DNA of 64,000 nt. It comes from Myxococcota bacterium (lineage in GTDB: Bacteria; Myxococcota_A; Polyangia; JAAYKL01). The stretch lies in assembly GCA_028278265.1 (NCBI GenBank), contig JANQET010000406.1, forward strand, positions 3,171 to 67,170. Reading direction: 5' to 3'. This document shows, one piece after another, positions 2,430 to 32,040 of this stretch. The notes under the pieces were generated by a model. The model saw only the letters and a program-made list of their open reading frames with translations, made no database searches and had not been told where the DNA came from. The stretch's first letter is position 1. Every line of letters begins with the position of its first letter. Both the position numbers and the translations under genes were made by a program.

Positions 2430-2669
2430 TTTAATGAAAATCACGTCAGTGACATCAGCGCGCTTAGCGGTTTGGACAACTTGAACTATTTACGGATGCA
2501 ATACAACCAAATCAGCGACATCTCACCATTAGTCGATAACACTGGGATCGGCATTGGAGATAATGTAAGCATTCGCTATAATCCCATCGACTGCGACGAC
2601 GCGAGTGTGCGGCAGCAGATTCAGGCCCTGATTGATCGGGGAGCAACAGTCTATCATGATTGCCCCTAG
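2430..2669 (+). pseudogene. leucine-rich-repeat protein remnant (C-terminal LRR units only); the 5' part is lost or overlapped by the IS91 fragment
   Basis: ...NHVSDISALSGLDNLNYLRMQYNQISDISPLVDN... LRR periodicity. No credible start or signal sequence, and the upstream part lies inside the transposase fragment. Confidence 0.4.
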
Positions 2670-3649: not shown

Positions 3650-3661
3650 TTCCTGTTTTAG

Positions 3662-5848: not shown

Positions 5849-6479
5849 GCCTACACCTCCGATGAAAATTGTAGTTCTGCGAATAAGTGCCGTCAACTAT
5901 CGAATGTGAGTTTACGTTCTCTTACGTTCTATTTGATCGAATCAAATCAGCAATTATCATGGGATTGTAAAATCATAGCTATTGCAGCATAGTTCAGAAG
6001 GTGAATGGCTTGTTAAAAATACATATGGTCATCTTCAGTATTTCATATGAAAACAAACCGCTATTTGTGTTGTTCAATGGAGGACCGGGTTCGAGAACTG
6101 CTATTTTGCTCGCGTTGTGAAAGGGGAGAGAAGATCTACACAACCTAAAAATAAGCGACTTTTGGTCTAGACAATGGGGTCCACTTTAAATCTGTAACTT
6201 TTCGTCATATTCTCGGGCCCACAGCCCCCCGGGGTGCCAGCATTGGTTCTGACTGAGCGCTGGATTTACAGACTCGCCGCCGGCGGTTTCGCCGCTTCGC
6301 CACCTTTCTCGCCACCCCAGAATGCTGGAAGCCATGAATAAACCTAAGGATTACGTGATGTTCCAATTGGCGCGAAAGCTGGCCCACATATTGCCGGTAT
6401 TGCCAGGGCTATGCTTGTCGCCCCACAGTATGAAGCGTTTTCCTACCAGCGCCGGATACCCGAGCAGGAGCTGCTGCAC

Positions 6480-6600
6480 CAGATCTTGCTCGAACACCTG
6501 GAGACGTTTCTCGACCGCGCTCGCACGCTCAAAGACGAAGATGTCAAACAAATAGTAGAAACCACGGCCCATTCAACGCTTCAAATCGGGGCAAACTGCT
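6480..6600 (+). mobile_element. short IS91-family transposase remnant (...TLKDEDVKQIVETTAH...)
   Basis: Translated frame resembles PELTEDDVRQIVETTAHRVIRLL of the 1841..2413 fragment. There is no intact ORF. Confidence 0.3.
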
Positions 6601-6767
6601 TGACGGTTGGTCTCAAGAGGCCTTTTATTTCACCTATGTCTGAGTATTTCATGCTATAATGCCAATGGGGTAGTGACTAAAGAACACCAGAGTTTTCTTA
6701 ACTACGGCGGGTTTCGGCGCCTGCCAAGTGCAGAAACACTTTATGGTGAAAACGAAGGAGAGTATCG

Positions 6768-9473: not shown

Positions 9474-9481
9474 GCGGGTAA

Positions 9482-10516
9482 TTGGGGACAGTGTTTTTTC
9501 AGTTCGAATGTCTTTCCAAACACTGCAACAACCAGGTTCGCTGCGACGACGGGGGAAATTGCTGCAACGAAGTGAATACAAGCCATTGTGATCTGTTCGT
9601 GTGCAATACAGATGTGTATCAACGTGTCGAGGATTGCGGCACAGCGGTTGAGCAGAATCAATTTTGCATTGCAGACTATCACTGCGAAGCCGGAGATTGT
9701 GTCCCAGACCTCGACAACGGCAGTTTCTGTGATGAGCCCAGCGATTGCGCATCCGACAATTGCAACAACGACACCTGTTGTCCCGCGGGCGGCACCTGTT
9801 GCACGGGACCAGAAGTCTGTGCTCAGGAACAGCCTATTTGCGGAGCGGAGTTTCAATGTGTGGATTGTAATGTGGAAGACCTGTGCGAGAATCAATACCG
9901 ATTGACTCCAATCTGCGATACTTCTTCGGGTAGATGTGTCGAATGCCTTACCAATGAGCATTGTTTATTGGAAATGGATACCGACAGCGAGACAGATATT
10001 GATACAGATACGGAGCTTCCTTTACCCTTCAAATCACCGTTGGGGGCTTGCACACCTGATCATGTATGCACTTGTTGGGTGGATCACGATACATGGCAGT
10101 GTACTACTTCTGCTGATTGCGATAGTGGATATCTCTGTGCGCAAGATTTTATCGGAGGATTTCACGCAACTTGTTTGAGGAGCTGCTCAACGGCGCAAAC
10201 ACCTTTTAACGGTGTCGCATGCGAAGAAAGAGATATAGCCGAGCCTGGCTCGCGACTCGTCTGGGTACCGGTAACCACATGCTACGCGTTCAATCGATTT
10301 GGTATCGATTCCTCGGCGGGTGAAGAGATTTGCAGCGTGGACGGTCCGGATGGTTTGGAAGACGGTTTTGGACACATGTTCGATGGACAAAATTGCTGCA
10401 CCTACTCCTGCAATAGCGAGCTAGACACAGACGATGACAATTGGTCCCGAGTGCAAGATCTGTGGAAGCGGTTCCAAGCTCTACGTGCCCTAGCCCCTGA
10501 TTACCTAACCTTATAA
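9482..10516 (+). CDS. cysteine-rich protein (about 40 Cys in 344 aa) with an internal acidic DT stretch; no recognisable signal peptide
   Basis: Only a TTG start, 8 nt after the upstream TAA, with a second in-frame TAA directly before it. Cys density is far above chance, so it is a real coding sequence. GC is about 48%. Confidence 0.5.
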   Translation: MGTVFFQFECLSKHCNNQVRCDDGGNCCNEVNTSHCDLFVCNTDVYQRVEDCGTAVEQNQFCIADYHCEAGDCVPDLDNGSFCDEPSDCASDNCNNDTCCPAGGTCCTGPEVCAQEQPICGAEFQCVDCNVEDLCENQYRLTPICDTSSGRCVECLTNEHCLLEMDTDSETDIDTDTELPLPFKSPLGACTPDHVCTCWVDHDTWQCTTSADCDSGYLCAQDFIGGFHATCLRSCSTAQTPFNGVACEERDIAEPGSRLVWVPVTTCYAFNRFGIDSSAGEEICSVDGPDGLEDGFGHMFDGQNCCTYSCNSELDTDDDNWSRVQDLWKRFQALRALAPDYLTL

Positions 10517-10804
10517 ATTGTACTTCTGCTGATAAGCTTTCTTGATAGCGGCGATCATTCGTTCGTGGCCGAACGTATCGTCTTCGTAGGCGTCGATCAG
10601 TATTCCCGTATTGAGATCGATCACACCGGCCCACAGGGACACGGCTCCCGAACTGGATGCCGGCAGGTAGTCGGCGTAGTCATTGCGAGCGTAGTACCCC
10701 ACTTCAAAGTAGGGATTGAAGTAACCGTAACATTCGGTCGCCGGGCCGAGTTGACCACTGTCGTGGTACATCCCCAAAAAAGCGCTCTCATAATCGTTCA
10801 TCAC
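10511..10804 (-). CDS. hypothetical 97-aa protein (Tyr/Asp-rich, not repetitive)
   Basis: Clean ORF convergent with the Cys-rich gene. No shadow-ORF explanation and no homology recognised. Confidence 0.35.
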   Translation of the reverse strand: MMNDYESAFLGMYHDSGQLGPATECYGYFNPYFEVGYYARNDYADYLPASSSGAVSLWAGVIDLNTGILIDAYEDDTFGHERMIAAIKKAYQQKYNL

Positions 10805-10858
10805 GTCTAGCAGGTCTGATGAATTAACTAATTCATCCAGCCAGACAGCACAGTTCGC

Positions 10859-11497
10859 TCACGCCTCGTTGCCCACAATGTAGAGCACTGATTGAAAGTC
10901 ATCGCAGAATACATCTTCTAAATTAAAGATGGTCTCGTCTAGCTCACTGCCGTCAATTTGGCCGTCGTGGTTGCGATCATATATGCCGTCGAACTGCCAG
11001 TTGGGCGCGGACTGGCCAATTTCGAGGGTACCGTCCTCCCCCCAAATTGCCGTTGGCTCGCAATCCGTGTCCCCATCGCTGTCGCTGTCTGTATCAGCGT
11101 CTGAATCGCTATCGGCATCACTGTCCGTATCTGAGTCCGTATCTGAGTCCGAATCAGCGTCTGCGTCGGTATCCCCGTCTGCGTCCGCATCCGCGTCACC
11201 GTCGGCATCTGAATCTGAATCGCTATCGGCGTCGGTGTCGGCATCCCCATCTGCGTCCCCGTCCGCATCGCTATCGGCATCTGTATCCGCATCCCCATCT
11301 GCGTCTGTATCAGCGTCGCCGTCACCATCGCCGTCAGCATCTCCGTCCGTTGATGAGTCATCATCGTCCGCTGGGTCGTCCGGTGAACCTTCCCCTTCTC
11401 CGCTACAGGCATTGATCACCGCTAACCAGGGGACCGCCAGCGCTATCAACAGCACCGCGATTGTGTTTAGCCATCTTCGTACATTCAGCACATTCAC
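10859..11497 (-). CDS. secreted lipoprotein with an Asp-Ala/Asp-Gly/Asp-Ser repeat linker and a C-terminal EF-hand/dockerin-like Ca-binding loop
   Basis: Signal with lipobox ...LAVINAC. Repeat [21 protein letters not shown].... Loop [14 protein letters not shown] fits DxNxDGxIDxxE. Confidence 0.75.
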
Positions 11498-11702
11498 CTC
11501 CGGACCGTTTTCAACCTCAAATAAACGAGTCTTTGTTTGGAAGACACATTATAACCGCATACTTAGTCAATGAAGTGTATTTTTTTGATTTTTAGGTGGA
11601 AAATTCTCAAATCAGTTCGATGAAGTTTCAATCAGCCTGTTCGATTTCGTTCTGGTGGATCGAACGCCTACGATGAGATTCTTTCGGAGGATCCGTTAGA
11701 AG

Positions 11703-11945
11703 CTAGGGTTGATTGAGGACGCAGCGGAGTACCCGACCGAGCTCGCCCAACCGATAGGGCTTGGCCAAGACCCCGCAAAAGCCCTGGGAGCGATATTCTG
11801 ACATGACCGGATCGTTGCTATAGCCACTGGAAACGATCGCCTTGATCTGCGGGTCGATCTCTTGAAGTTTTAAGACTGCTTGCTGTCCGCCCATTCCGCC
11901 GGGCACGGTTGAATATAGATAGAATAAAGGGCCTCTTGAGACCAA
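11703..11945 (-). pseudogene. C-terminal remnant of a receiver (REC) domain of a response regulator or hybrid kinase; the 5' part is missing
   Basis: ...PGGMGGQQAVLKLQEIDPQIKAIVSSGYSNDPVMSEYRSQGFCGVLAKPYRLGEL matches the last half of a CheY-like receiver. The ORF begins abruptly at the border of the AT-rich island. Confidence 0.5.
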
Positions 11946-12080
11946 CTGTCAAGCAGTTTGGGTCTTGATTGGATAGAATTTTCCATCTTCTATATTAAAG
12001 CCCCCCGTATTGATGGAAAATGTTTGAAAACTTTTTATGTTACCACCGTTTTTAATGTGCGTCTATATTTTTTTGACTTT

Positions 12081-12115
12081 TATTGACAACACAAGGGTTA
12101 GTTGATATCTTTTAT
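12081..12115 (+). promoter_or_regulatory. candidate sigma70-type promoter (TTGACA, 17-nt spacer, TATCTT) upstream of the AT-rich-island genes
   Basis: Hexamers read directly from the sequence and followed by AGGGAG. Not tested. Confidence 0.25.
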
Positions 12116-12211
12116 AAGAGGGAGTGAACGCGGTTTTAATGATTAATAAATTGACAATTTTAGAAAAGCGCGATGAAGTAGCCTTACACTTTAACAAGAA
12201 TTCTGCCGCCT

Positions 12212-12493
12212 ATGCTCGAATTTCTAAATACAGCTCAAGAATACTTGAAAGAGCTTGGTGCATTCCAAGGATCGCTGGTACTATTCTTTTTTGTTGCACA
12301 TTATGCGATATGGAGAATGTATAGAGGAAGGCTTAGAGATCGCCAAAAAGAGATCAACAGAATGGCAGAACACTGCAAAGACGTGAGAAAAGACAATTTA
12401 AGCTTAAGAAAACAGCTTTTTGAATATAACAAGTTGATGCTGAACGAGACTGTTAAACAAAAACGAACAAACAAGAAACAGAGGAGAAAATGA
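12212..12493 (+). CDS. small membrane/coiled-coil protein (93 aa), hypothetical
   Basis: One TM segment (GSLVLFFFVAHYAIW) then a charged coiled coil. The stop overlaps the next start (ATGA). An alternative small ORF at 12139..12324 with a better RBS cannot be excluded. Confidence 0.35.
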   Translation: MLEFLNTAQEYLKELGAFQGSLVLFFFVAHYAIWRMYRGRLRDRQKEINRMAEHCKDVRKDNLSLRKQLFEYNKLMLNETVKQKRTNKKQRRK

Positions 12494-13023
12494 CATATTT
12501 TTTATTGATTCCTGTTTCGGTGTTTCTTTTTTACCAGTTCTCTAGACTTCGGTCTTTAGCGAAGCACGACAAAATACTGTTCCCGATTTGTCAGATCCGT
12601 AGAGACATCATGTCTTTTTTTATGAAGAACGGCGTTGAAATTTCTGAGGTAAATTATCGCGAAGCGTTAGATTTATTAAAGGCGGTGGATATAACGATCC
12701 ACTATTACAATCCATTAAAGACGAATTTCTTCAACCTTCGCCGGTTTCAAGAACACGTTACTAAAACTCGCGAAGGTAAAAAAATAATAAACAAGCTGTC
12801 AAAGAATGAAGAGATTCGTGATCTTCAAGGGCGGTTTGGCAATGCGATTATCAAGGGATTTTTGGCTTATACGCCGTTCGTTCGCTCCGAATTTTGTTTA
12901 AAAACAATTTTGTTTTTAATCACCCGTATTGCGAATAAAAACATAGAAGAAATCGATCGTTCGGTTGAACAGGCTCGCCAACTCCGCAAGGAGTACTTAA
13001 TTTCCAACAAGGTTGCTTGTTGA
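12490..13023 (+). CDS. hypothetical protein with an N-terminal TM helix (177 aa), AT-rich island cargo
   Basis: Strong RBS GAGGAG upstream of the ATG. 37% GC. No recognisable domain. Confidence 0.55.
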   Translation: MTYFLLIPVSVFLFYQFSRLRSLAKHDKILFPICQIRRDIMSFFMKNGVEISEVNYREALDLLKAVDITIHYYNPLKTNFFNLRRFQEHVTKTREGKKIINKLSKNEEIRDLQGRFGNAIIKGFLAYTPFVRSEFCLKTILFLITRIANKNIEEIDRSVEQARQLRKEYLISNKVAC

Positions 13024-13220
13024 GTACTCATTGATCCAGCAGACCTTGCTTCAATTTTAACTGCCCTTCAATAAAATATGGCTAACATGTTGATATTATT
13101 GGTTTTTTCTTGATATCTGAATTGGAATATCGGCTGGATCGCCTTACAGATAAAGCACTATCAGTGTTTCTTCCATCGTTTGAGTTTAGTTTTTAGCAAC
13201 AATCCAACTATCCAACTTGG

Positions 13221-13991
13221 TTATTTTTTTCTACCTCGCTTCTTCCTTTTCTTCTTTTTCTGTTCAAGACTAACGCTCGGGAGTTGAACTTTGACTTTTT
13301 GAATTGAAAAGCCCTTCCTCGGCACGATTAGCTTCAAATCCGCCACCGCGGAGATCAACGGTAGTTCAAACGCCGTCATGCTCTTCTTTCTGATTCCGGG
13401 TTGAAGTTGTGTGAACATGTCTTTTTTACCGCTCATCGCGAGCGCCGTGGTGGCCGCAGAGGACGGGCTGTATTCGATGAACCGAGCATCTATGATTTTA
13501 AAATCGTCCGTGATCACCGTGTCTGTTGCTCCCTGAAGATTCTCAATTTCAAAATGGATCACGTAAAACACACCGTTTTCACCCGCTCGTTCTCCATAAA
13601 ATCGATTTCCGATGTAACGTGTAACGGTCACGTCGAGAATTCGATACGCGAAACCGCCAAGTTTGAAACGCTCGCCGATAGAGTAGATCTTTTCCGCTCT
13701 TTTCTTGGCGACTTTCTTCTCCTTTTTCTCTTTCTTCGGTTTTGGTTTGCTCGGCACGATCGGCGGTCTGGAGAGTGATGAACCTTCTGAGTTTATGCCT
13801 GTTTCTCGTTGTTTCGTACCAGATCCACCTGCCCCGGCACTCGTGATGATCAGACTCAGCACTAGCCACCCAAACGCGAGGCCTTTAACCACCTTTGAAT
13901 AACCTTTTCGCAGAGTGAACCAAGCGAACACCAGGGGAATGAAGACAATACCGACGCCGAGACCGAGGCTGACCTTTCGTTTCTCCGTCAT
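13221..13991 (-). CDS. membrane-anchored protein with a Lys-rich linker and a DUF4352-like Ig-fold domain; Lys-rich C-terminal tail
   Basis: ATG MTEKRK preceded by AGGAGG. TM segment LGVGIVFIPLVFAWF. Linker PKPKKEKKEKK. Domain pattern ...FKLGGFAYRILDVTV...VFYVIHFEIENL...FKIIDARF.... Confidence 0.55.
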   Translation of the reverse strand: MTEKRKVSLGLGVGIVFIPLVFAWFTLRKGYSKVVKGLAFGWLVLSLIITSAGAGGSGTKQRETGINSEGSSLSRPPIVPSKPKPKKEKKEKKVAKKRAEKIYSIGERFKLGGFAYRILDVTVTRYIGNRFYGERAGENGVFYVIHFEIENLQGATDTVITDDFKIIDARFIEYSPSSAATTALAMSGKKDMFTQLQPGIRKKSMTAFELPLISAVADLKLIVPRKGFSIQKVKVQLPSVSLEQKKKKRKKRGRKK

Positions 13992-14224
13992 GACTTTCCT
14001 CCTGCCCAACAAAAAAGGCGAGTGAGCCGCCGAGAGCTAAACCCACCCGCCTTTCCGTGAACAGAGGTAGTCACTCCCCTGCTGTAACGGCGCGGTTGTG
14101 CTCTCGGCTAGTTTTTAAAGGGCCAGGTGTTTTCGGCTTTAGAACGGCTGGGTGACTAGTCCGGCCTGGCGCGGAAACGATTGACCTTTTACGGTTATCG
14201 GTGTCTCGCTGTTTGTTGTCAAGG

Positions 14225-14330
14225 TCTTTTGTTTAATCCATTGTTATTTGACACTGTTTAATAGAAATTATTGTTTAATTTTAGCATATTATACGATATA
14301 ACATTGTTTATATTGACAGTATACAACAGA
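14225..14330. promoter_or_regulatory. four direct copies of an ATTGTTTAAT-like motif in a divergent intergenic region (candidate operator or iterons)
   Basis: ttgtttaatcc / tgtttaatag / ttgtttaatttt / ttgtttatattg lie between the divergently oriented genes 13221..13991 and 14360..14839. Confidence 0.3.
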
Positions 14331-14359
14331 AATGTTAGATATCCGCATGAGGAACCGCA

Positions 14360-14839
14360 ATGGACAATAGCGAAAAATATGACTACGAGCAGTCCGGGAA
14401 ACAACTGGTTGAACGACTTCGGGAAATCAAAAAAGAAATCAAAAGGTTAAAGCGCGAACAAAAATGGATCAACAATCTGCTCGTTAATAAAGATTCGGAG
14501 ATGCAAAAAGCGGGTCCTAGGTCGGTAAATGATGGTGTCACTAGGAAAACTTCTAGCAAAATTGCAGAGATCGCTAAGCAGGTCCTTCTTAAGCATCCGA
14601 ATGATTGGTTCGGTTCAGCGCATCTGGCCGATAAAGCGGTTGAGATGGGACTATGGGATGATCACCCAGCAACCTACCAGTCAGTAATGTCACAGACACT
14701 CAAGCGATTGATCGGACGAACTGATTGGTTATTCACCAAATCGGGTTCGGGTCGTAGCATGCTTTACAAGTTAGATTTCGATTCCGAAGCTGTAAAAGAG
14801 AAACACCGAGAAATTATGCGAAAGGAGGAAAATGAGTAG
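14360..14839 (+). CDS. hypothetical protein with an N-terminal coiled coil and a possible winged-helix (HARE-HTH-like) region
   Basis: Clean 159-aa ORF in AT-rich DNA. The segment KIAEIAKQVLLKHPNDWFGSAHLADKAVEMGLW has HTH-like character. Weak. Confidence 0.5.
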   Translation: MDNSEKYDYEQSGKQLVERLREIKKEIKRLKREQKWINNLLVNKDSEMQKAGPRSVNDGVTRKTSSKIAEIAKQVLLKHPNDWFGSAHLADKAVEMGLWDDHPATYQSVMSQTLKRLIGRTDWLFTKSGSGRSMLYKLDFDSEAVKEKHREIMRKEENE

Positions 14840-15189
14840 GTCGAAAGCAAAAGCACAAATGCCCTGAGTGTTGCATCACCCAAGGCACTTGAAAATCGGC
14901 GGGTACATTTTGGGCACCCATACAGATGCTCAAAATGTACCGCAGATGTCGCCGTAAATCAACATAATTCCCTCGAAAAAGCACCTGTACGAGAGAAGAA
15001 AGGGTAGGACTATGCTGAAGCGGTTCAAGAGGGCACGGGTGCGTCTGAGGCTTCGTGTCCGAAAAAACGGCGTCATCGTAGAAATCGAATGGATAACGGT
15101 AGCTTACGGCGATTCCCTCCCCAGGTACCCGTGAGCTTTCCCCCGGTGGAGAGGGCCACTGGGGTTTCTCTTCCTACATACAACTTTTA

Positions 15190-16075
15190 CAATATATCGG
15201 AGATATGCGAATGCCAAAGCGATTACCATTTGAGAAAAAAGTATCAGTGATCCACGCCCTCGTGGAGGGATGTTCAGTCAGATCCACAGAACGCCTCATG
15301 GGCGTGAACTTCGAGACGGTCCTTCGTCTTCTGGTAAGGGTTGGTGAAGCCTGTGAACGGTTTCTCTATCGAACCATGTTTGACCTCAACATCGATGACC
15401 TCCAAGTGGATGAGGTCTGGACGTTTTGTGGAAAAAAACAAGGCCACCTCACGAAGGAAGAAAAAAAGTTTAGATCAGACCTCGGCTCTCAAATATGTTT
15501 TTACAGCCATCGATAGGAGAACAAAGCTCGTGCCGCTGTACAGGATTGGCAAACGAAACGCGGAGATCGCGACGGAGTTTATGAAAGAGTTGAGGATGCG
15601 CGTCAAGACCCCGGTTCCCCAGTTGACCACGGACGGCTGGCACATCTTCCGAGACGCCGTGGAAAAGGCATTCGGGTGCGATGTGCACTATCAGGTTCAG
15701 ATCAAGGACTACTATGGTCCGGCAGCGGGCCACCAACACCGTTACTCGCCTCCAAAAGTGAAGATCGTTCATAAAGAAACAGTCAGTGGATCCCCCGTCA
15801 ACGCCTCCACGGCCCACGTGGAACAACAGAATTTAACCTTGAGAATGCGTCAACGGCGATTCACTCGACTCACCAACGGTTACTCGAAGAAGTTGCGAAA
15901 CCTGAAAGCGGCCGTAGCTCTACATTACGGGGACTATAACTTCTGTCGTGTACATGAGAGCCTCGGGGTAACACCCGCGATGGAGGCAGGGATCGCGGAT
16001 CGTTTGTGGACGTTGAATGAGTTTTGCGAAGAACTCGGCCTTTAATTCATAAGTTGTAAAATTCTATAAGACCGA
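15190..16075 (+). mobile_element. IS1-family insertion sequence (InsA-like HTH ORF plus InsB-like DDE ORF in different frames joined at an A8 run); imperfect terminal inverted repeats containing TTGTAAAA
   Basis: ORF1 15205..15516 and ORF2 15341..16045. ORF2 ends ...TAHVEQQNLTLRMRQRRFTRLTNGYSKKLRNL, like the IS1 InsB C-terminus, and has the DDE-region motifs DEVW...TDGWHIF. A8 tract at about 15434-15441. Confidence 0.6.
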
Positions 16076-17429: not shown

Positions 17430-19229
17430 ATGTTTTTTCGTCTGCCTGCGAGCTTACCTTTTTCCATTCTACTTCTTTGCATCATCTCCTGCGGCCGGAT
17501 TGAATTCGAAAATCTCGATTTCTCGGATGGTGGTGGCACCGGGGATGCTGATACAAACAGCGACGCCGATGTAGACACCGACACTGATACGGATACGGAT
17601 GGGGACACAGATAGTGATGCCGACACAGATAGCGACAGCGATACGGACACAGATGTGGACACGGACACAGATTCAGACACAGATACGGACACAGATTCAG
17701 ACACAGACACAGATAGCGACGGAGACACAGACATCGATACCTGTCCCGATGGTTTTATCTGGAGCGGTACTATCTGCACCGAGGTAAACAACTGTGGGGA
17801 GATCCAAGAGCTAAACAGCAATCTTCCCAGTGGCGACTATTCCATCATTCCCCCCACTGCGCCGCCGCTTCCCGAGGCGGGTTGCACCTATCACACCTAC
17901 AACCACCACGCCTACTATTACTGCGATACCCCCACAGAGTGGGCAACCGCTCGGGACAACTGCCGCCAGGTGGGAATGGAACTGGTCCGGATAAACGATG
18001 GCGATGAGAATATTTTTGTCCACAGCACCATCACGGCGGACTGCTGGTTAGGGGGCAACGACATTGAGAGCGATACCAACTGGTATTGGGTAAACGGCCA
18101 CAATAGCGCCACTCCATTTTGGCAGGGGTGGGCAGATGGCAATGCGGTGGATGGGTTGTACGAGAATTGGGCGCCAACAGAACCCAACGATGGGGCAGAA
18201 GATGAAGATTGTGCCGAGATGATCAGCGGAAGCTCCCAATGGAATGATCGCCCCTGCACCGGATACGATAGACCCTACATGTGCGAGTCCGCGTTTACCC
18301 CAAGAGCGCCCAGTGGCGATTGCCACCATTGGATATACAACCAACACCACTACTATTTCTGTCGCATTGGTCTCTCCTGGGCAGAGGCGCGGGACGCCTG
18401 CCGAGGGGTGGGAATGAATCTGCTGCGCATCGACGACTCTGACGAAAACAGCTTTGTCACCAGTCATCTGGAAGTGAGCACCTGGCACAGCGCCAATGAT
18501 CTGGCAGTGGAGGGGGCATGGCGATTTGCGCAAAACGGCAACCGGGAAGGAGATCAGTTCTGGAGCGGTGGCAGCATCGGCAACGGCGGTTCAGCCGTCG
18601 ATGGGCACTACAGCAACTGGAATACCAATGAGCCCAATGACCCCGGGAACAATGAGAACTGCGGCATGATAGCGGCCACAGGCACCTGGAACGATGGGCT
18701 CTGCACCGATCCGCTTGACTATGTGTGCGAGCAAACCTACTTTGCTATCCCCGCTGCGATTCCGGCTGGCAGCTGCGCCCACATTCCATTTGAAGAGAAA
18801 AACTACTTCGCCTGCGTGGATAAAATGGCCTGGATCGATTCTCGGGACAACTGCCGGGCCGCGCAAATGGAGCTGGTGCGCATCGACAACCCGACAGAAA
18901 ACGCCTTGATAAAAGGCCTCATCGAGTGGCACACCTGGATGGCGGCCAACGATCTCTCTGTGGAAGGGGAATGGCGATATGCTGATAACGGCACCAACGA
19001 CGGCGATCAATTCTGGAGCGGTGGCTCCGTGGGTAGTGGCGGCGTGCCCGTGGGCGGACTCTTCAGCGACTGGTATGTGGATGAACCCAACAATTTGGGC
19101 ACCGCGGAGCACTGCGCCACCATGCAATTCGCCACCCATCAATGGAACGACGACTACTGCACCAATTATGAGAACAACCGGGTTTGCGAAGCAGCCAATC
19201 CCACCCAAACGGTCACCTGTACGTTCTAG
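17430..19229 (+). CDS. secreted lipoprotein with an Asp-Thr/Asp-Ser repeat linker followed by three C-type lectin-like domains (CTLDs)
   Basis: Signal with lipobox ...LLLCIISCG. Repeat [25 protein letters not shown].... Each CTLD shows the motifs W-x-x-A-R-D-x-C, WIG/ND-like, EPN and WND-x-x-C (for example NWAPTEPNDG...WNDRPC). Confidence 0.85.
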   Translation: MFFRLPASLPFSILLLCIISCGRIEFENLDFSDGGGTGDADTNSDADVDTDTDTDTDGDTDSDADTDSDSDTDTDVDTDTDSDTDTDTDSDTDTDSDGDTDIDTCPDGFIWSGTICTEVNNCGEIQELNSNLPSGDYSIIPPTAPPLPEAGCTYHTYNHHAYYYCDTPTEWATARDNCRQVGMELVRINDGDENIFVHSTITADCWLGGNDIESDTNWYWVNGHNSATPFWQGWADGNAVDGLYENWAPTEPNDGAEDEDCAEMISGSSQWNDRPCTGYDRPYMCESAFTPRAPSGDCHHWIYNQHHYYFCRIGLSWAEARDACRGVGMNLLRIDDSDENSFVTSHLEVSTWHSANDLAVEGAWRFAQNGNREGDQFWSGGSIGNGGSAVDGHYSNWNTNEPNDPGNNENCGMIAATGTWNDGLCTDPLDYVCEQTYFAIPAAIPAGSCAHIPFEEKNYFACVDKMAWIDSRDNCRAAQMELVRIDNPTENALIKGLIEWHTWMAANDLSVEGEWRYADNGTNDGDQFWSGGSVGSGGVPVGGLFSDWYVDEPNNLGTAEHCATMQFATHQWNDDYCTNYENNRVCEAANPTQTVTCTF

Positions 19230-19654: not shown

Positions 19655-20434
19655 ATGGACAACATTATCTCAAATGAGGCGCTGGAAAGGCTCGATAATC
19701 GAGCTGAACGCGTTCGACAATTGATGACGTCCAGCACGCAAGCTCAAATCACCCAACTCTGGAAACAACTCGATTTCTCACTGATTTATCACGATTGTGC
19801 GCTGGAAGGGCAAGTGGTCAGCTCGGATGAGCTCAATGCGGCGTTCAACGAACGGACGGTGACCGATGCGTCCTCGCTGCAGCTTTACAACGCGCTCCGA
19901 TCGCAGCGACGGGCCGTTGATCTGGTTCGGGAGATGGCCGCTCAAGAACAACTCGTTTTTTCGATCGATTTATTCAAGCAGTTTCACCACCTCTACGTTC
20001 CCTCCGCATCGAACCCGGAAAAAATCAAACACGGCCACTATCGCAAAGAGATTCCCCTACACCGCTCCTATTTTCACGAGATATCCGAGCCCGCGAGAAT
20101 CTCCGGCAACATGCGCCAGCTGATCGCTTGGCTCAACGACCCCGAAGAAGCGTTGGCCCTGCACCCCCTCAAGTGGGTGGCCAAGTTTCACTACCGCTTC
20201 ATGCGCATTTTTCCCTTTGCTGAAACGTCGGGCAAAATCGCCCGGGCGACGATGAACATGGTGCTCATTCGCACCGGCTACCTGCCGGCGATCATCCACG
20301 CCACCGAGCGGCAGCGCTACTACGAGTGCATTCGTCAACCCCTGCCCGAGCTCACCCGGTTGCTGGCGGAATCGGCCAACTCGTCCCTCGACGCGGCAGA
20401 GAAATTCCTGCGCAGACGGGCCAAGGCGTCATAG
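19655..20434 (+). CDS. Fic/Doc-fold protein with a degenerate active-site motif (FPFAETSGKIAR instead of HPFx[DE]GNGRxxR)
   Basis: Overall Fic-domain context ...VAKFHYRFMRIFPFAETSGKIARATMNMVL.... The catalytic His is replaced by Phe and GNG by TSG. Confidence 0.6.
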   Translation: MDNIISNEALERLDNRAERVRQLMTSSTQAQITQLWKQLDFSLIYHDCALEGQVVSSDELNAAFNERTVTDASSLQLYNALRSQRRAVDLVREMAAQEQLVFSIDLFKQFHHLYVPSASNPEKIKHGHYRKEIPLHRSYFHEISEPARISGNMRQLIAWLNDPEEALALHPLKWVAKFHYRFMRIFPFAETSGKIARATMNMVLIRTGYLPAIIHATERQRYYECIRQPLPELTRLLAESANSSLDAAEKFLRRRAKAS

Positions 20435-26860: not shown

Positions 26861-28009
26861 CTACCCGGAGCGCTGATCGATCGGCACGAACTTCTTGTCG
26901 AAGCCGCCGGTGTAATTGGAGGTGGGCCGAATCAGCCGGTTGTCTCTGAATTGTTCGATCACGTGAGCGGTCCAGCCGGCGGTGCGGGCCACGGAAAAGA
27001 TGCAGGTAAAGAACGATTTGGGGATGCCCAGGGCTTTTTGGGTGAGGGCTGAATAGAAATCCACATTCGGGCGCATCCGGGTCAGGGCGAGCACTTTTTG
27101 CTCGACCTTTTGGGCCAAATCGGGGAGGTGGGGCTGGCCCTCCTTTTCGTGCAGTCTCCCCACATGTTCTCGCAACAATGCGCTGCGGGGATCCTCGGTT
27201 CGATACACCCGGTGACCAAACCCGGAGACGCGAGTCTGGCCCGAGCCCATGCCTGCGATGTACGGGGTCAATTGCTGACCGAAGTCGATGTTTTCCAGCA
27301 TCTCGAGCACGCGGAGATTGGCGCCGCCGTGAAGGGGTCCTTTGAGACAGGCCAGCCCCGCCGAAATTGCCGAATGCATGCCGGCCAAGCTGCTCACCGT
27401 CACCCGCGCGGCAAAGGTCGAGGCGGTCAGACCGTGATCCGCCAGAAGCACCAGCAACGTATCAAACGCCCGTCGTTCGGTCTCGTCGGGCATCCGGCCG
27501 TGCAGCATGTACAAAAAATTTTCAGCCAAGCCCTTGCGTCGGTCCGGCGACAGAATCGGCTGACCCGAATGGATGCGGTGCAGGGTCGCCACGATGGTGG
27601 CCACCTGGGCGAGAATGCGGATCGCCTTGCGCATGTTGGCGTCCTCGGTGTTGACGCCCCCGTCCGGGTCGAACATGCCCATCGCCGAGACTGCGGTGCG
27701 CAGCACGACCATCGGATTGGCGCTCGGCGGTGTGACGCGCAACAGGTCGTGAACCTGACCGGGGAGCCTCATTTCGTTGATCAATCTCGACCTGAGCTCC
27801 TCGAGGGTCTCCTTTCCCGGGAGCGCCCCGTACCACAGCAGGTAAATCACCTCTTCGAACGACACATTTCCCGCCAGCTCGTCGACATTGTATCCGCGAA
27901 AAACGAGCCGTCCGTTTTGGCCGTCCACAAAGCAAATCTGGGTATCGGCGGCGACGACCCCCCGGAGGCCCCGGGTCGTCTCCCCCTTGGTGCCGTATGG
28001 TTCACTCAT
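26861..28009 (-). CDS. gltA: citrate synthase
   Basis: Motifs GFGHRVYRTEDPR and ...LHGGANL... are hallmarks of citrate synthase. ATG at 28009 is preceded by GGAG. The GTG at 28030 listed in the ORF track is less likely to be the start. Confidence 0.9.
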   Translation of the reverse strand: MSEPYGTKGETTRGLRGVVAADTQICFVDGQNGRLVFRGYNVDELAGNVSFEEVIYLLWYGALPGKETLEELRSRLINEMRLPGQVHDLLRVTPPSANPMVVLRTAVSAMGMFDPDGGVNTEDANMRKAIRILAQVATIVATLHRIHSGQPILSPDRRKGLAENFLYMLHGRMPDETERRAFDTLLVLLADHGLTASTFAARVTVSSLAGMHSAISAGLACLKGPLHGGANLRVLEMLENIDFGQQLTPYIAGMGSGQTRVSGFGHRVYRTEDPRSALLREHVGRLHEKEGQPHLPDLAQKVEQKVLALTRMRPNVDFYSALTQKALGIPKSFFTCIFSVARTAGWTAHVIEQFRDNRLIRPTSNYTGGFDKKFVPIDQRSG

Positions 28010-28279
28010 AAAAGCAACTCCTATCTCCACCTTCCGACAATTGTCGATATTGTAATGAGAATGTACCTGTTATCATATTGCAGCGCATAGTAGCAGAAAA
28101 TGCGCACAAACGCAGCGGCCGATCGTCGCGTAGGATGTGGACAGCAATCGGATGGCCCGAAGCCGCGGCGAAGGCAATTTTGACCACGCCGATACGACGT
28201 ACCGCCCCGTTCTTCATCGGTTGTCGGTGTATGGCCACGATGATATACTCCCACCATCAATTCACCGGGAAGGGCCGCG

Positions 28280-29518
28280 ATGTATATCACCTCTTTGACA
28301 CTAGAAAATTTTAGAACCTTCAAAGTAGCTGAAATCGAGTTTGTTCATCCCGATCGGGAGTGGAGTGATAACTGCAACATTCCCAAACCGCGGTACCCCA
28401 ACATCAACCTACTGTTGGGTGACAACGGCTCGGGCAAAACATCCCTGTTAAAAGCGGTGGCCCTCTCAGCGCTGGGCCCGTCCATCGAGGATTCCGGCAT
28501 TTTGCCCTATCGACTCATTCGTCGTTCCGCGACCTTCGACGCCAAAACCGATACCACCATCGCCCGAATCGAAGCGCGGTTCACGCCGCACGACCAAGAT
28601 AGTGTCCCGTCGGACATCCGGCAGATCGAATCGGCGATTAAAATTTCGAGGCGGGGAGATACGGAGCGTATGCGCTGGGATCATCCCGACGACAAGACGT
28701 GGCACCCGGTTTTCAGCTCAGATTCCGATGCGTTCTTTTTTGTGGGCTATGGTGCGACGCGGCGCGTCGAGAAGGGCGAAAACGTGGACATGGGCAGCCG
28801 AAGACAATCGGTGACCACACGCGCTCTGCGCGTCAGGAGCATCTTCGAGGAAGCCTATTCGCTCGTCCCGTTTACCGCCTGGCTACCCCGACTCGAAACC
28901 GAAAATCCAGGGCGTCACAAACAGGCCGTCGACCTCATCAGCAAGCTCCTCGGCGATGAGGCGATAGCGTTCACCGGCGAGCGGGAGCAGGGAGAATACG
29001 TCTTCGATCAACAGGGAATCAAGATCCCCTACCCAGCACTCTCGGACGGATATCGCGCGTTTCTGGGTTGGATAGGCGACCTACTCTACCATGTGTGCGA
29101 CACCTGCCCCAGCGGCAAAAAGCTCGTCGACAATCAAGGCATTGTGATGGTGGACGAAATCGATTTGCACTTGCACCCGCGATGGCAATTGAAGGTGCTG
29201 GGCTTGCTTTCGCAGACCCTGCCGAATATTCAATTCATTTTGACGTCCCATAGCCCGCTTCTCGTCGGCTCTTTGGAGTGGATGAACATCGTTGTGATGG
29301 ACAGCCAAAACGAGTCGAATCAGGCCGTGCGCATCAAAGAGGCGATCCGCGGACTGGACGCGGATCAGATTCTGCTAACCGAATTCTTTAAACTGGCCTC
29401 GACTCGCACCGGCGAAAAACGGGAGCAGTTGGCCCGTCTTACAGAGGCCGCACGTAAAGGTGATGCGGAGTCCGCACTGGAGTTGCTGCGCGAAATGAGC
29501 CGGGGTTTGGAGGAATAG
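28280..29518 (+). CDS. AAA_21/ABC-type ATPase (Walker A, ABC signature, Walker B, H-loop), PtuA-like; first gene of a Septu-like defence pair
   Basis: GDNGSGKTSLL (Walker A), LSDGYRAF (signature-like), IVMVDEIDLHLHP (Walker B) and LTSHSPLL (H-loop). The stop lies 1 nt before the next start. Confidence 0.75.
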   Translation: MYITSLTLENFRTFKVAEIEFVHPDREWSDNCNIPKPRYPNINLLLGDNGSGKTSLLKAVALSALGPSIEDSGILPYRLIRRSATFDAKTDTTIARIEARFTPHDQDSVPSDIRQIESAIKISRRGDTERMRWDHPDDKTWHPVFSSDSDAFFFVGYGATRRVEKGENVDMGSRRQSVTTRALRVRSIFEEAYSLVPFTAWLPRLETENPGRHKQAVDLISKLLGDEAIAFTGEREQGEYVFDQQGIKIPYPALSDGYRAFLGWIGDLLYHVCDTCPSGKKLVDNQGIVMVDEIDLHLHPRWQLKVLGLLSQTLPNIQFILTSHSPLLVGSLEWMNIVVMDSQNESNQAVRIKEAIRGLDADQILLTEFFKLASTRTGEKREQLARLTEAARKGDAESALELLREMSRGLEE

Positions 29519-29519
29519 G

Positions 29520-30404
29520 GTGATCCGATATCCCATATCACAGGCTGATCTGGAGCAGCGGATCGAGGATTTCAAGCCGGGCTGGAAAGCGCGGGCCGAC
29601 GCGAGAACCACCACCTTCCGCAGCGAACACAAATACAGCGAGAAGAGCTCGATCTGGAGTGAGGTCAAGCCGGTCTACATGACCCTGCAAGGTGAGAGCA
29701 AGTGCGCCTATTGTGAGCGTAAAATGGAGTCCGTCGCGTCGGGCAAGGGCGAGCAGGACGTCGAGCACTTCCGCCCCAAAGGCAACATCAGCCCGTGGGT
29801 GCCGCCCGACAGCATCGATACCAACGCGATACGGATCACCCAAGTGCCGGCAGACGCCACAGGCTACTACCTGCTCCCCTACCACCTGTTCAACTACGCT
29901 GCCTCCTGCAAACCGTGCAACTCAAAGTACAAAGGTGACCGCTTTCCCATCGCCGGCAGGTATGATCAAGCCGGAGACGATCCGGACGCCCTGAGTGCCG
30001 AACAGCCCTATCTGATCTATCCGATTGGCGACATTGACGCAGATCCCGAAGACCTGATCAGCTTCAACGGCGTTTCCCCCTATGCCAGCGGGAGTGGAGC
30101 GCGCGCGATACATCGGGGATTGGTGACGATCGCCTTCTTCGGGCTCGATGACTTTGACCAGCGGAAAAATCTCTTGCTGGAGCGCGCCCGCGTCATCACG
30201 TTGCTCTACGACAAACTGGTTGCGAGTGACAGCGGTGATGCCGAAACTGCACAGCGGGCCGGGCAGTTCATCGCCGCACTGACCAACCCCAAGGCGCCGC
30301 ACACCAATTGTGCGCGAAGCTTCCTGAGGCTGTACCGGGCCGACAGGAACGAGGCCAAAGCGTTCAACGCCGCGGCGGAACAACTGCTCATCTCCAGTTC
30401 CTGA
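29520..30404 (+). CDS. HNH nuclease-domain protein, PtuB-like; second gene of the pair
   Basis: CAYCERKME...DVEHFRPKGN...CKPCNSKYKGDRFP matches the CxxC...H...CxxC HNH zinc-finger arrangement. GTG start with a GGAGGA RBS. Confidence 0.7.
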   Translation: MIRYPISQADLEQRIEDFKPGWKARADARTTTFRSEHKYSEKSSIWSEVKPVYMTLQGESKCAYCERKMESVASGKGEQDVEHFRPKGNISPWVPPDSIDTNAIRITQVPADATGYYLLPYHLFNYAASCKPCNSKYKGDRFPIAGRYDQAGDDPDALSAEQPYLIYPIGDIDADPEDLISFNGVSPYASGSGARAIHRGLVTIAFFGLDDFDQRKNLLLERARVITLLYDKLVASDSGDAETAQRAGQFIAALTNPKAPHTNCARSFLRLYRADRNEAKAFNAAAEQLLISSS

Positions 30405-30432: not shown

Positions 30433-32040
30433 CTACTGACTACAATCGTAACTTTTGGAATAGCAGGCAGCATCGACACCACAGCACTTCTCGGTTTTCC
30501 CGTTGCAACAGGTGAAGTGACTCGAGGTGCCGCACTTTATCTCGTGACAGTCGCAGACGTCGTTGTTGGGAAAGATTCGCGCCGGCCCGGTCGAGGTCAG
30601 CTTGACGGTTTTTTGGGCACCGTTCAGGCTAAATGAACCGGATTGTTCGTACGATCCCGCAGCGAGTCGCAAAATACTCCCGTTCCAGGCGCCGTGTCCG
30701 CTCCATTTGTCGTAGAGGGTGTACCCTATCGGATCGCAACCGTGGTTTCCGTCACTGTTCGGGTTCACGTCAATCACGCTGGTGTAGTGCTTGAACCAGA
30801 TCGAATTGTCCAGACCATTGTTGTTGAGCAAAATGGCGTGCAGCTCGCCCTTATGCTGCCCGTATGCTTTGTCGGTGATGTCAGTGTAGTCCAGCCCCTC
30901 TGGTTCTTGATTGAATTCGGTCTCGTACTTGAACGGGTGTTGGCTGTTCGATGATCGCTTCATCAACCACCAGCTCCCCGATCCGGTGCGAAAAACATTG
31001 ATTGTCCCTTCGTTTTCCAAGACGTAGAAATACTCACCGTCAGCGGAAAAATCGCCCCCCTGGAGCCAGTTCCCATCGTCTACCCAAAACGGGTCGCCAT
31101 TGGCCTCGAGCAGATTGTGTTCCCAATGACCGAGCAGCTGAAGATTGACCGGAGCCCCGGCGTTCTGCACATCTGGCCACGATATTCGATACCGATGCAC
31201 TGTGTTGTGTTGATCATCTTTCGAAGAATAGATGAACCCATCGTTATCTACTGCGACCCACGGTGTCTTGCCCCCCTGGAAGTAATTCACCGATACCTGC
31301 GCCATGTGTTTCAGGTCGGAGGCTCGAAAAAAGGCCAACAGGGCGCTGTTGCTGCACCCCTCGATCGGGATCACCAAATACGTTTCGCCGTTGAATCGAA
31401 ATTCGTCCAAATCGCCGAAATGGTCGCAGCCCCATTGCTCCAGCAGAGGATAACTGTGATCTTGCAGCCGTCTCGTCGGATTGCACCAATTGTCATTTTC
31501 ATCGTCCAAGCTGCAGGTCAGCGGCACTCGCCAGAGCATATTGGTGCGGCCCAGAGGACTGCGCACATGGGTGTTCGTGAAGAACCAGTGCGCCCCATCG
31601 CTCGCCACGCCCTGAAGCCGATAATAGTACCACCCGGCCTCTTCGTCGTTCAGCGCGTTGCCCAAATAGTTGAACGATGCCTGAAACCCCTCGGAGACCG
31701 GACTCGTCCCCACCCTCGGGCTCACCGTAACCGACGCCTCTTGCGCCAACGCCAAATGCTGGTCTGTTCCGTCATCCCCATCGAGAATGTCAGGTAACGG
31801 GCGCGCCAGAGCCTGTGCCGGAGAGGATGCAGTTTGGCGATGTCCAGTTGCCATCGCCGGATTCTCAACCAACCGGGAATTGGATTGAGCAACCGGCGCT
31901 TCATAAAGTGCCGAGCCGCTCTCCCACTCCCTGGTCTCGCAGGCCAGTATACAACCGACCAGTAGCAATAACCCCCATGGCCTCAATCCCTCGCCAGTTC
32001 CAACCATCCACTCGAAATCAAGCCGCTTCATTTCATCCAT
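30433..32040 (-). CDS. secreted lipoprotein, hypothetical (535 aa), Cys-rich C-terminus
   Basis: Signal with lipobox LLLLVGC. No recognised domain. Confidence 0.65.
   Translation of the reverse strand: MDEMKRLDFEWMVGTGEGLRPWGLLLLVGCILACETREWESGSALYEAPVAQSNSRLVENPAMATGHRQTASSPAQALARPLPDILDGDDGTDQHLALAQEASVTVSPRVGTSPVSEGFQASFNYLGNALNDEEAGWYYYRLQGVASDGAHWFFTNTHVRSPLGRTNMLWRVPLTCSLDDENDNWCNPTRRLQDHSYPLLEQWGCDHFGDLDEFRFNGETYLVIPIEGCSNSALLAFFRASDLKHMAQVSVNYFQGGKTPWVAVDNDGFIYSSKDDQHNTVHRYRISWPDVQNAGAPVNLQLLGHWEHNLLEANGDPFWVDDGNWLQGGDFSADGEYFYVLENEGTINVFRTGSGSWWLMKRSSNSQHPFKYETEFNQEPEGLDYTDITDKAYGQHKGELHAILLNNNGLDNSIWFKHYTSVIDVNPNSDGNHGCDPIGYTLYDKWSGHGAWNGSILRLAAGSYEQSGSFSLNGAQKTVKLTSTGPARIFPNNDVCDCHEIKCGTSSHFTCCNGKTEKCCGVDAACYSKSYDCSQ

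What the first reader, a model, noticed from the sequence alone, without database searches (positions are those of the whole stretch)
28280..30404. Septu-like two-gene defence module (AAA_21 ATPase plus HNH nuclease) between citrate synthase and a lipoprotein gene
Seen in sequence: a 412-aa protein carries Walker A (GDNGSGKTSLL), an ABC-signature-like LSDGYRAF, Walker B (VMVDEIDLH) and an H-loop (TSHSPLL). Its stop lies 1 nt before a GTG-initiated 294-aa protein with a CxxC...H...CxxC HNH zinc-finger (CAYCERK...VEHFRPKG...CKPCNSKYKG).

Established knowledge: an AAA_15/21 ATPase followed directly by an HNH endonuclease is the PtuA/PtuB architecture of the Septu anti-phage system. The fused TOPRIM of OLD or Gabija nucleases, and the DUF4435 partner of PARIS, are absent.

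Inference: this is a chromosomal defence cassette. The pair is + strand, flanked by minus-strand housekeeping genes, and is preceded by a promoter region containing a GCGCAT-N11-ATGCGC inverted repeat (28070-28100). The PtuB-like protein is about 70 aa longer than typical PtuB and the ATPase is shorter than typical PtuA, so it may be a divergent Septu subtype.
Basis: partly seen in the sequence, partly recalled or inferred. Interest (0 to 1): 0.75.

Follow-up and report, generated by a model that had tools for sequence, protein, structure and literature searches.

The report
Stand-alone Septu (PtuA/PtuB) defence gene pair
Two adjacent genes encode an ATPase and a DNA/RNA-cutting enzyme that match the known Septu anti-virus system of bacteria, so this is an ordinary new example of a known system.

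Summary
Window 28280-29518 (+) encodes a 412-aa ABC-type ATPase. One nucleotide after its stop, 29520-30404 (+) encodes a GTG-initiated 294-aa zinc-finger HNH protein.

Residues shown experimentally to be essential in characterised PtuAB are conserved: Walker A K53, Walker B D292/E293 and HNH H83.

In 56 of 56 metagenomic loci with enough upstream sequence, a PtuA homologue lies directly upstream of the PtuB homologue. No third gene is conserved. No reverse transcriptase, TOPRIM or DUF4435 partner is present.

The "divergent subtype" idea is weak. The 412/294-aa lengths are typical of a large, phylum-spanning subfamily that PADLOC already models.

The GCGCAT-N11-ATGCGC repeat lies at 28083-28105 and is at chance level.

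Defence activity and substrate (DNA nicking or tRNA-Tyr cleavage) are inferred, not shown.

Verdict: a new member of a known kind, of low interest.

The parts
28221..28249 (+). Candidate sigma-70-like promoter (TTGTCG-17 nt-TATACT, with TG before the -10), about 30 nt upstream of the PtuA start. Weak evidence only.
   Evidence: Consensus scan. It found 2 promoter-like sites in 2.8 kb, against 1.0 +/- 1.1 in shuffles, so this is not above chance. Its position fits the 249-bp divergent intergenic region.
28280..29518 (+). ptuA: a 412-aa ABC/SMC-head-type ATPase. Walker A is at residues 47-55 (K53), Q106 is invariant, the signature is LSDGYR (254-259), Walker B is D292/E293, and the H-loop residue is H324.
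   Evidence: - ORF.
- Pfam AAA_21 4.7e-24 and AAA_15 6.9e-15.
- PADLOC PDLC00301 PtuA1 at 1.4e-144, residues 1-411 on model positions 1-408 of 429.
- Sequence matches to solved PtuA chains (9vkz 1e-21, 8ee4 9e-18).
- Invariant motif residues in 30 homologues.
29510..29515 (+). GGAGGA Shine-Dalgarno-like hexamer inside the end of ptuA, 4 nt before the GTG start of ptuB. Together with the 1-nt gap this suggests translational coupling.
   Evidence: Read directly from the sequence. Coupling is inferred.
29520..30404 (+). ptuB: a 294-aa zinc-finger HNH (beta-beta-alpha-Me) nuclease with a helical C-terminal domain. The Cys4 zinc site is C62, C65, C130 and C133. The catalytic His is H83. N125 and N134 are invariant. 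A roughly 35-40-residue insert lies between H83 and N125. H261-x-N263-C264 is an invariant or nearly invariant motif in the C-terminal domain.
   Evidence: - ORF.
- PADLOC PDLC00318 PtuB1 at 3.7e-81, residues 1-289 on model positions 1-287 of 299.
- NCBIfam PtuB 7.7e-6 and TIGR02646 5.6e-4, both below their cut-offs.
- 40-sequence alignment with invariant residues.
- AlphaFold2 model with pLDDT 90.9.
- H83 aligns with Ec78 PtuB H57.

Best explanation
This is a stand-alone, two-gene Septu anti-phage system, ptuA followed by ptuB. It sits alone among chromosomal housekeeping genes of an uncultured bacterium.

Shown here:
- Both proteins belong to the PtuA and PtuB families by profile and by predicted fold.
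- Their catalytic residues are intact.
- The two genes form a self-contained cassette that is conserved as a pair across phyla.

Inferred from characterised Septu and retron PtuAB systems (PMC12819146, PMC13096335):
- The two genes are co-transcribed and probably translationally coupled.
- PtuA oligomerises through its ABC ATPase heads and binds PtuB through PtuB's helical C-terminal domain, holding the HNH nuclease in check in uninfected cells.
- A phage cue releases or activates the nuclease. In E. coli Septu the reported cue is a tail-fibre protein together with falling ATP levels.
- The nuclease then nicks DNA and/or cleaves host tRNA (tRNA-Tyr in E. coli Septu EcB88). This arrests the infected cell and blocks phage production, an abortive-infection-like outcome.

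Which substrate and which trigger apply to this particular subfamily is unknown.
For: - **Profiles.** PADLOC PtuA1 PDLC00301 at 1.4e-144 and PtuB1 PDLC00318 at 3.7e-81, both nearly end to end. Pfam AAA_21 and AAA_15 on gene 1.
- **Catalytic residues.** The gap-free HMMER alignment to Ec78 PtuA puts E293 on E396, and the E396Q mutant loses defence. It also puts Y258 on Q361 of the LSDGQR signature. PtuB H83 aligns with Ec78 H57, and H57A loses defence. Walker A and B and the HNH residues are essential in Septu EcB88. Their counterparts are invariant in 30 and 40 homologues.
- **Gene pairing.** In 56 of 56 metagenome loci with at least 1.3 kb upstream of a PtuB homologue, a PtuA homologue lies just upstream on the same strand. 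It is within an estimated 150 nt in 53 of them. The same holds in six loci with called genes.
- **No third partner.** No flanking gene family recurs in more than 3 loci.
- **Mobility and defence context.** Flanks are unrelated between loci. Some contain integrases, Mrr, GmrSD, DUF1156 and further AAA_15/21 ATPases. Relatives at 36-41% identity lie next to AAA ATPases on 5 plasmids, 4 of them conjugative. Named homologues come from many phyla.
- **Stand-alone type.** No reverse transcriptase gene flanks the pair and no Rfam family matches the region. Walker A starts at residue 47, so there is no long retron-type N-terminal extension.
Against: - No experiment exists for this protein pair. I found none for its 412/294-aa subfamily either.
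- Identity to structurally characterised PtuA and PtuB is only 15-24%. PtuB sequence matches to solved chains are marginal (E 0.027 for the single sequence, 1.2e-4 for the profile).
- Pfam HNH models do not hit PtuB. The NCBIfam PtuA and PtuB equivalogs are far below their cut-offs, although those models are built for retron Ec78.
- The locus is not in a defence island. Base composition (GC3 0.68 and 0.76) is like that of neighbouring genes, so there is no sign of recent acquisition.
- Insertion into this site could not be tested because no syntenic close relative was found.
Confidence: 0.88

Rival explanations
1. The pair is an orphaned effector module of a type I-A retron (Ec78/Eco7-like). 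Its reverse transcriptase and ncRNA would have been lost or would lie elsewhere.
Against: - No reverse transcriptase gene is adjacent. The upstream neighbour is a divergent citrate synthase and the downstream neighbour is a convergent 535-aa protein.
- There is no Rfam match in the window or in the 249-bp upstream region.
- Stand-alone PtuA1 and PtuB1 models score far higher than the I-A models.
- The NCBIfam retron Ec78 PtuA equivalog scores 132.6 bits against a cut-off of 500, and PtuB scores 25.9 against 150.
- PtuA lacks the N-terminal extension that retron PtuA uses to bind RT and ncRNA. Walker A is at residue 47 here, against about 87 and onward in Ec78.
- None of the six homologous loci with called genes shows a reverse transcriptase beside the pair.
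Confidence: 0.03
2. The pair belongs to a different ABC-ATPase defence system of the OLD, Gabija or PARIS type rather than to Septu.
Against: - No TOPRIM domain is fused to the ATPase, and no DUF4435 or GajB-like helicase partner is present.
- The partner is an HNH protein with the PtuB fold.
- PtuA structures outscore AriA, GajA and OLD by 8-12 Z units.
- All of the best 25 PADLOC hits are PtuA models, apart from one retron ATPase_I-A model.
Confidence: 0.02
3. The pair is a housekeeping DNA-repair or chromosome-maintenance pair (RecF-, SbcC- or Rad50-like ATPase plus nuclease) and not an immune system.
For: - It is embedded among housekeeping genes (PmbA/TldD, cyclase, citrate synthase, peptidases M19 and M24) with host-like composition.
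- There are weak NCBIfam hits to RecF, Rad50 and SbcC, limited to the P-loop region.
Against: - Distribution is patchy across distant phyla at 50-64% identity.
- Flanking genes are unrelated in every locus examined.
- Some loci carry integrases and restriction or defence genes.
- Relatives are carried on conjugative plasmids.
- There is no coiled-coil insertion of SMC or Rad50 length.
- The family-specific PtuA and PtuB profile matches are orders of magnitude stronger.
Confidence: 0.03
4. The pair persists mainly as a selfish toxin-antitoxin-like addiction module, or as an inactive remnant, and gives the host no real protection.
For: Retron-type PtuAB is toxic when it is not sequestered. The locus is solitary, its composition is like that of neighbouring genes, and no other defence genes lie nearby.
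Against: - All catalytic and zinc-binding residues are intact, and both ORFs are full length relative to the family.
- In stand-alone Septu the PtuAB activity is reported to be tightly controlled before infection, and Septu protects against phages.
- A toxin-antitoxin-like behaviour would not exclude defence.
Confidence: 0.04

Closest known systems
Stand-alone Septu of E. coli (PtuA/PtuB; PDB 8ee4, 8ee7, 8eea; Li et al. 2024, as cited in PMC12819146) and Septu EcB88 (PMC13096335)
   Same: - It is a two-gene ptuA-ptuB operon without a reverse transcriptase.
- PtuA is an ABC ATPase without an N-terminal extension.
- PtuB is a zinc-finger HNH domain plus a helical C-terminal domain.
- Walker A Lys, Walker B Asp/Glu and the HNH His are conserved.
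   Different: - Structure-based identity is only 23% for PtuA and 15% for PtuB.
- PtuA is about 50 aa shorter (412 against 465 aa).
- PtuB is about 60 aa longer than 8ee7_C (234 residues). It has extra N-terminal residues and an insert of about 35-40 residues between the catalytic His83 and Asn125.
- The ABC signature reads LSDGYR with an invariant Tyr. E. coli Septu is reported to have Leu at this position and retron Ec78 has Gln.
- Oligomeric state, trigger and substrate were not tested here.
PADLOC Septu type I subfamily models PDLC00301 (PtuA1) and PDLC00318 (PtuB1)
   Same: Both proteins match nearly end to end with very high scores (480 and 271 bits). The model lengths (429 and 299 positions) fit the proteins. 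More than 1,200 PtuB and more than 2,900 PtuA relatives exist in public data.
   Different: Nothing structural differs. This copy is a singleton at 90% identity, and its nearest relatives are 60-64% identical.
Type I-A retron effectors (retron Ec78/Eco7 and Ec83 PtuA/PtuB; PDB 9kjx, 9nnb, 9vh1, 9e8z, 9n69)
   Different: - There is no RT, ncRNA or msDNA.
- There is no PtuA N-terminal extension.
- The NCBIfam retron equivalog cut-offs are not reached.
- Retron PtuAB forms a 4:2 complex sequestered by msDNA, whereas stand-alone Septu forms a hexameric assembly.
PARIS (AriA/AriB), Gabija (GajA/GajB) and OLD-family nucleases
   Same: They share a related AAA_15/AAA_21 ABC ATPase head used as a sensor or scaffold in anti-phage defence.
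   Different: The effector here is a separate HNH protein, not a TOPRIM domain or a DUF4435 partner. Structural and sequence similarity is much lower than to PtuA.

Membership tests
Septu (PtuA/PtuB) | PtuA is an ABC/SMC-head-type ATPase of the AAA_15/AAA_21 kind that matches curated PtuA profiles. | tested here: met
Septu (PtuA/PtuB) | The ATPase catalytic motifs are intact: Walker A Lys, Walker B Asp-Glu, signature and H-loop. | tested here: met
   K53, D292/E293, S255-R259 and H324 are invariant in 30 homologues. E293 aligns with Ec78 PtuA E396, which is needed for defence. Walker A and B are needed in Septu EcB88.
Septu (PtuA/PtuB) | PtuB matches generic HNH domain models (Pfam). | tested here: not met
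   No Pfam family matches at E <= 0.1. NCBIfam TIGR02646 scores 20 bits against a cut-off of 52. This reflects the sensitivity of the generic models. The PtuB-specific tests in the next row are met.
Septu (PtuA/PtuB) | PtuB is an HNH (beta-beta-alpha-Me) nuclease with a helical C-terminal domain and matches curated PtuB profiles and structures. | tested here: met
Septu (PtuA/PtuB) | ptuA lies immediately upstream of ptuB on the same strand, and the two form a self-contained two-gene cassette. | tested here: met
   A 1-nt gap separates the two genes in the window. In 56 of 56 informative metagenome loci PtuA lies directly upstream. No flanking gene family recurs in more than 3 loci.
Septu (PtuA/PtuB) | PtuA and PtuB assemble into a complex (a hexameric PtuA assembly with PtuB in E. 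coli Septu). | not testable with these tools
   Only monomer predictions were available. The assembly is described in PMC12819146, citing Li et al. 2024.
Septu (PtuA/PtuB) | The pair confers anti-phage protection that depends on the ATPase and HNH residues. | not testable with these tools
   This needs plaque assays. It has been shown for E. coli systems only.
Type I-A retron (Ec78/Eco7-like) | A reverse transcriptase gene and an msr/msd ncRNA lie adjacent to ptuA/ptuB. | tested here: not met
   The neighbouring genes are a citrate synthase (Pfam Citrate_synt) and a 535-aa protein with no Pfam hit. There is no Rfam match in the window or in the upstream region.
Type I-A retron (Ec78/Eco7-like) | PtuA and PtuB reach the NCBIfam retron Ec78 equivalog thresholds, and PtuA has the N-terminal extension. 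| tested here: not met
   NF041760 scores 132.6 bits against a cut-off of 500. NF041761 scores 25.9 bits against 150. Walker A is at residue 47 here, against about residue 87 onward in Ec78 PtuA.
OLD / Gabija / PARIS | A TOPRIM nuclease domain is fused to the ATPase (OLD, GajA), or a DUF4435/TOPRIM partner is present (AriB). | tested here: not met
   There is no TOPRIM or DUF4435 hit on either protein. The partner has the PtuB HNH fold.

The most novel reading that the evidence does not exclude
The 412/294-aa clade to which this pair belongs could be a mechanistically distinct Septu subtype. Three features are fixed across the clade:
- A confidently modelled insert of about 35-40 residues, mostly without regular secondary structure, lies inside the HNH motif between the catalytic His83 and Asn125.
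- An invariant H261-x-N-C264 motif lies in PtuB's helical C-terminal domain.
- An invariant Tyr sits in the ABC signature (LSDGYR), where retron PtuA has Gln and E. coli Septu has Leu.

These features could change ATP handling, the phage trigger sensed or the nucleic-acid substrate, compared with the E. coli systems studied so far.
Probability: 0.2. Interest if true: 0.4.

Novelty: new member of a known kind. Interest (0 to 1): 0.15.

Why it matters
The locus adds one more chromosomal, solitary Septu system in an uncultured bacterium. The nearest named relatives of its citrate synthase are Myxococcota, Deltaproteobacteria and Planctomycetota MAGs at about 53-63% identity.

Its practical value is as an annotation: both genes are unnamed in the public sources that hold them. 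It also points to a large, untested Septu subfamily found in cyanobacteria, Planctomycetes, Anaerolineae, Bacteroidota, Burkholderia and others. All mechanistic work on Septu that I found used E. coli proteins that are only 15-24% identical by structure-based alignment. A representative of this subfamily would be a reasonable choice for testing how general DNA nicking, tRNA-Tyr cleavage and ATP control are. In itself the finding would not surprise a specialist.

Tried and rejected
1. **Insertion test in related genomes.**
   - Scanning 185,579 species genomes with the flanking citrate synthase gave at best 50% identity.
   - The large protein database gave relatives at 81% identity on a 1.4-kb contig, which is too short, and at 63-68% identity. 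Three contexts were read, at 68%, 66% and 63% identity.
   - Those contexts are not syntenic: they contain aconitase, glutamate synthase, DapB and others.
The test could not be made.
2. **Inverted repeat GCGCAT-N11-ATGCGC as an operator.** It is at chance frequency and its arms cannot be extended. Rejected as evidence.
3. **Promoter and terminator scans.** Counts do not exceed those in shuffled sequence.
4. **Hidden ncRNA or retron msr/msd upstream of ptuA.** There is no Rfam match at gathering thresholds in the window, and none at E <= 1 in 27950-28350.
5. **Defence-island context.** The neighbours are housekeeping genes. The only PADLOC hit nearby is a Fic protein about 8 kb upstream.
6. **Compositional foreignness.** GC3 of ptuA (0.68) and ptuB (0.76) lies within the range of neighbouring genes, 0.65-0.78. 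The sliding-window profile shows no sharp break.
7. **Phage carriage.** tblastn of PtuB against 50,697 phage records found no match.
8. **Li et al. 2024, the primary Septu structure paper (PMC12318543).** It is not held in the library. Its findings are cited only through PMC12819146.
9. **tRNA genes as integration sites.** None is present in the window.
Full report
**Observation.** One is at 28280-29518 (+), ATG start, 412 aa. The other is at 29520-30404 (+), GTG start, 294 aa. The junction reads GGAGGAATAGGGTG. The TAG stop of gene 1 ends at 29518, one G follows, and the GTG of gene 2 starts at 29520. A GGAGGA hexamer lies 4 nt upstream of the GTG.

All quoted motifs are present:
- Gene 1: Walker A at residues 47-55, LSDGYRAF at 254-261, Walker B at 289-297, TSHSPLL at 322-328.
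- Gene 2: CAYC at 62-65, EHFRPK at 82-87, CKPCN at 130-134.

Homologue alignments support both start codons.

The pair is flanked by minus-strand genes. Upstream and divergent is a citrate synthase at 26861-28030. Downstream and convergent, with a 28-nt gap, is a 535-aa protein at 30433-32040 that has no Pfam or PADLOC match.

The inverted repeat GCGCAT-N11-ATGCGC is real but lies at 28083-28105. Its arms are only 6 bp. Such repeats occur about 1.4 times per 250 bp across the window, so it carries no weight. A promoter-like TTGTCG-17-TATACT at 28221-28249 is well placed but is not above the shuffle expectation.

**Family assignment.** Gene 1 hits Pfam AAA_21 (4.7e-24) and AAA_15 (6.9e-15). Gene 2 has no Pfam hit.

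Against PADLOC-DB, gene 1 matches the Septu model PDLC00301 (PtuA1) at 1.4e-144, over residues 1-411 on a 429-position model. Gene 2 matches PDLC00318 (PtuB1) at 3.7e-81, over residues 1-289 on a 299-position model. Nearly all other hits are further PtuA and PtuB models.

The NCBIfam models for retron Ec78 PtuA and PtuB are hit only weakly and far below their cut-offs: 132.6 of 500 bits and 25.9 of 150 bits.

Sequence search of the PDB links the C-terminal half of gene 1 to PtuA of retron Ec78 and Ec83 and to stand-alone Septu (9vkz 1e-21, 8ee4 9e-18). Gene 2 is linked only marginally to a TIGR02646 protein (9n69_F, E 0.027; 1.2e-4 with a profile).

**Structure.**

**Catalytic residues.** The alignment of residues 246-349 to Ec78 PtuA 349-452 has no gaps.
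- E293 therefore corresponds to E396, whose E396Q mutant abolishes defence.
- Y258 corresponds to Q361 of the 357-LSDGQR-362 signature.
- PtuB H83 aligns with Ec78 H57, and H57A abolishes defence.
- In Septu EcB88, the Walker A and B residues (K43, D316) and the HNH residues (H75, N91) are essential.
- In 30 PtuA homologues, G50, G52, K53, T54, Q106, S255-R259, D292, E293 and H324 are invariant.
- In 40 PtuB homologues, C62, C65, H83, N125, C130, C133, N134 and K138 are invariant. So are H261 and C264 in the C-terminal domain.

**Distribution and context.** More than 1,200 PtuB and more than 2,900 PtuA relatives were found. The nearest are 60-64% identical, with lengths of 289-298 and 407-430 aa. 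Named sources span Cyanobacteria, Planctomycetes, Anaerolineae, Bacteroidota, Desulfuromonadales, KSB1, Thermoanaerobaculia and Burkholderia.

In six loci with called genes, PtuA always directly precedes PtuB and the flanks are unrelated. Two loci are clearly mobile or defence contexts:
- In Burkholderia paludis the pair lies beside integrases and an Mrr nuclease.
- In another locus it lies beside integrases, DUF1156, GmrSD and other AAA_15/21 ATPases.

In 80 metagenome loci, all 56 with at least 1.3 kb upstream of PtuB have a PtuA homologue directly upstream on the same strand. No flanking gene family recurs in more than 3 loci.

Relatives at 36-41% identity sit next to AAA ATPases on five plasmids, four of them conjugative. 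No phage record carries a match.

**This locus.** In this window the pair is solitary. The neighbours are PmbA/TldD, a cyclase, citrate synthase, peptidases M19 and M24, and a LysM-M15 peptidase. No tRNA gene and no Rfam family were found. GC3 values (0.68 and 0.76) are like those of the neighbouring genes.

**Mechanism (inferred).** The mechanism is inferred by homology with characterised systems.
- PtuA oligomerises and holds PtuB through PtuB's helical C-terminal domain.
- In stand-alone Septu the hexameric complex is reported to be kept inactive before infection. It is reported to be activated by phage proteins (tail fibre) and by falling ATP levels, after which the nuclease attacks DNA.
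- Which of these applies here is unknown.
- The absence of a reverse transcriptase, an ncRNA and a PtuA N-terminal extension places the pair with stand-alone Septu and not with type I-A retrons.

**Differences from the studied systems.**
- Structure-based identity is 15-24%.
- PtuA is about 50 aa shorter than E. coli PtuA.
- PtuB is about 60-80 aa longer than the solved PtuB chains. It has extra N-terminal residues and an insert of about 35-40 residues between H83 and N125. The insert is modelled confidently but mostly without regular secondary structure.
- The ABC signature carries an invariant Tyr where Ec78 has Gln and E. coli Septu is reported to have Leu.
- These are subfamily traits shared by hundreds of sequences and already captured by PADLOC models. 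They are not peculiarities of this locus.

**What could not be done.** The test for presence or absence in related genomes failed for lack of close, syntenic relatives. Complex formation, nuclease activity and phage protection need experiments.

**Verdict.** The locus is a new member of a known kind and of low interest. The only moderately novel possibility is that this untested subfamily differs mechanistically from E. coli Septu.

Noticed in passing
window 3662-10516: Three large ORFs (744 aa on the minus strand; 901 aa and 344 aa on the plus strand) have markedly lower GC. Computed for the 744- and 901-aa ORFs, GC is 0.47-0.51 and GC3 is 0.43-0.54, against 0.65-0.78 for the other genes checked. 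None has a Pfam or PADLOC match. This looks like a compositionally foreign block of orphan genes.
   Followed up: partly
window 15341-16045 (+): A 234-aa ORF has weak DDE transposase hits (IS240 at 5.6e-6, IS1 at 2e-5). It may be an IS remnant lying between the low-GC block and the housekeeping region.
   Followed up: no
window 19655-20434 (+): A 259-aa Fic/DOC-domain protein (Pfam Fic 1.4e-10) matches the PADLOC candidate system PDC-S04 (3.2e-21) and, more weakly, SoFic (5.1e-12). It lies about 8 kb upstream of the Septu pair.
   Followed up: partly
window 30433-32040 (-): A 535-aa protein convergent with ptuB (28-nt gap) has no Pfam or PADLOC match and is a singleton in the protein collection. 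It has an N-terminal hydrophobic LLLVGC string, which may be a lipobox, and a Cys-rich C-terminus. It is not found next to PtuAB in other loci.
   Followed up: partly
window 30300-30311 (PtuB residues 261-264): A second conserved motif, H261-T-N263-C264 within 'PHTNCARSF', lies in PtuB's C-terminal helical domain, away from the HNH zinc finger. H261 and C264 are invariant and N263 is at least 90% conserved in 40 homologues. Its role is unknown.
   Followed up: no
window 17430-19229 (+): A 599-aa protein has three C-type lectin domains (Pfam Lectin_C 2.7e-43), which is unusual for a bacterial genome.
   Followed up: no
L089 (ENA ERZ21830300 contig, locus coordinates 1-14885): A homologous PtuAB pair sits in a dense island with integrases, two DUF1156 proteins, a GmrSD_N protein and two further AAA_15/AAA_21 ATPases.
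   Followed up: no
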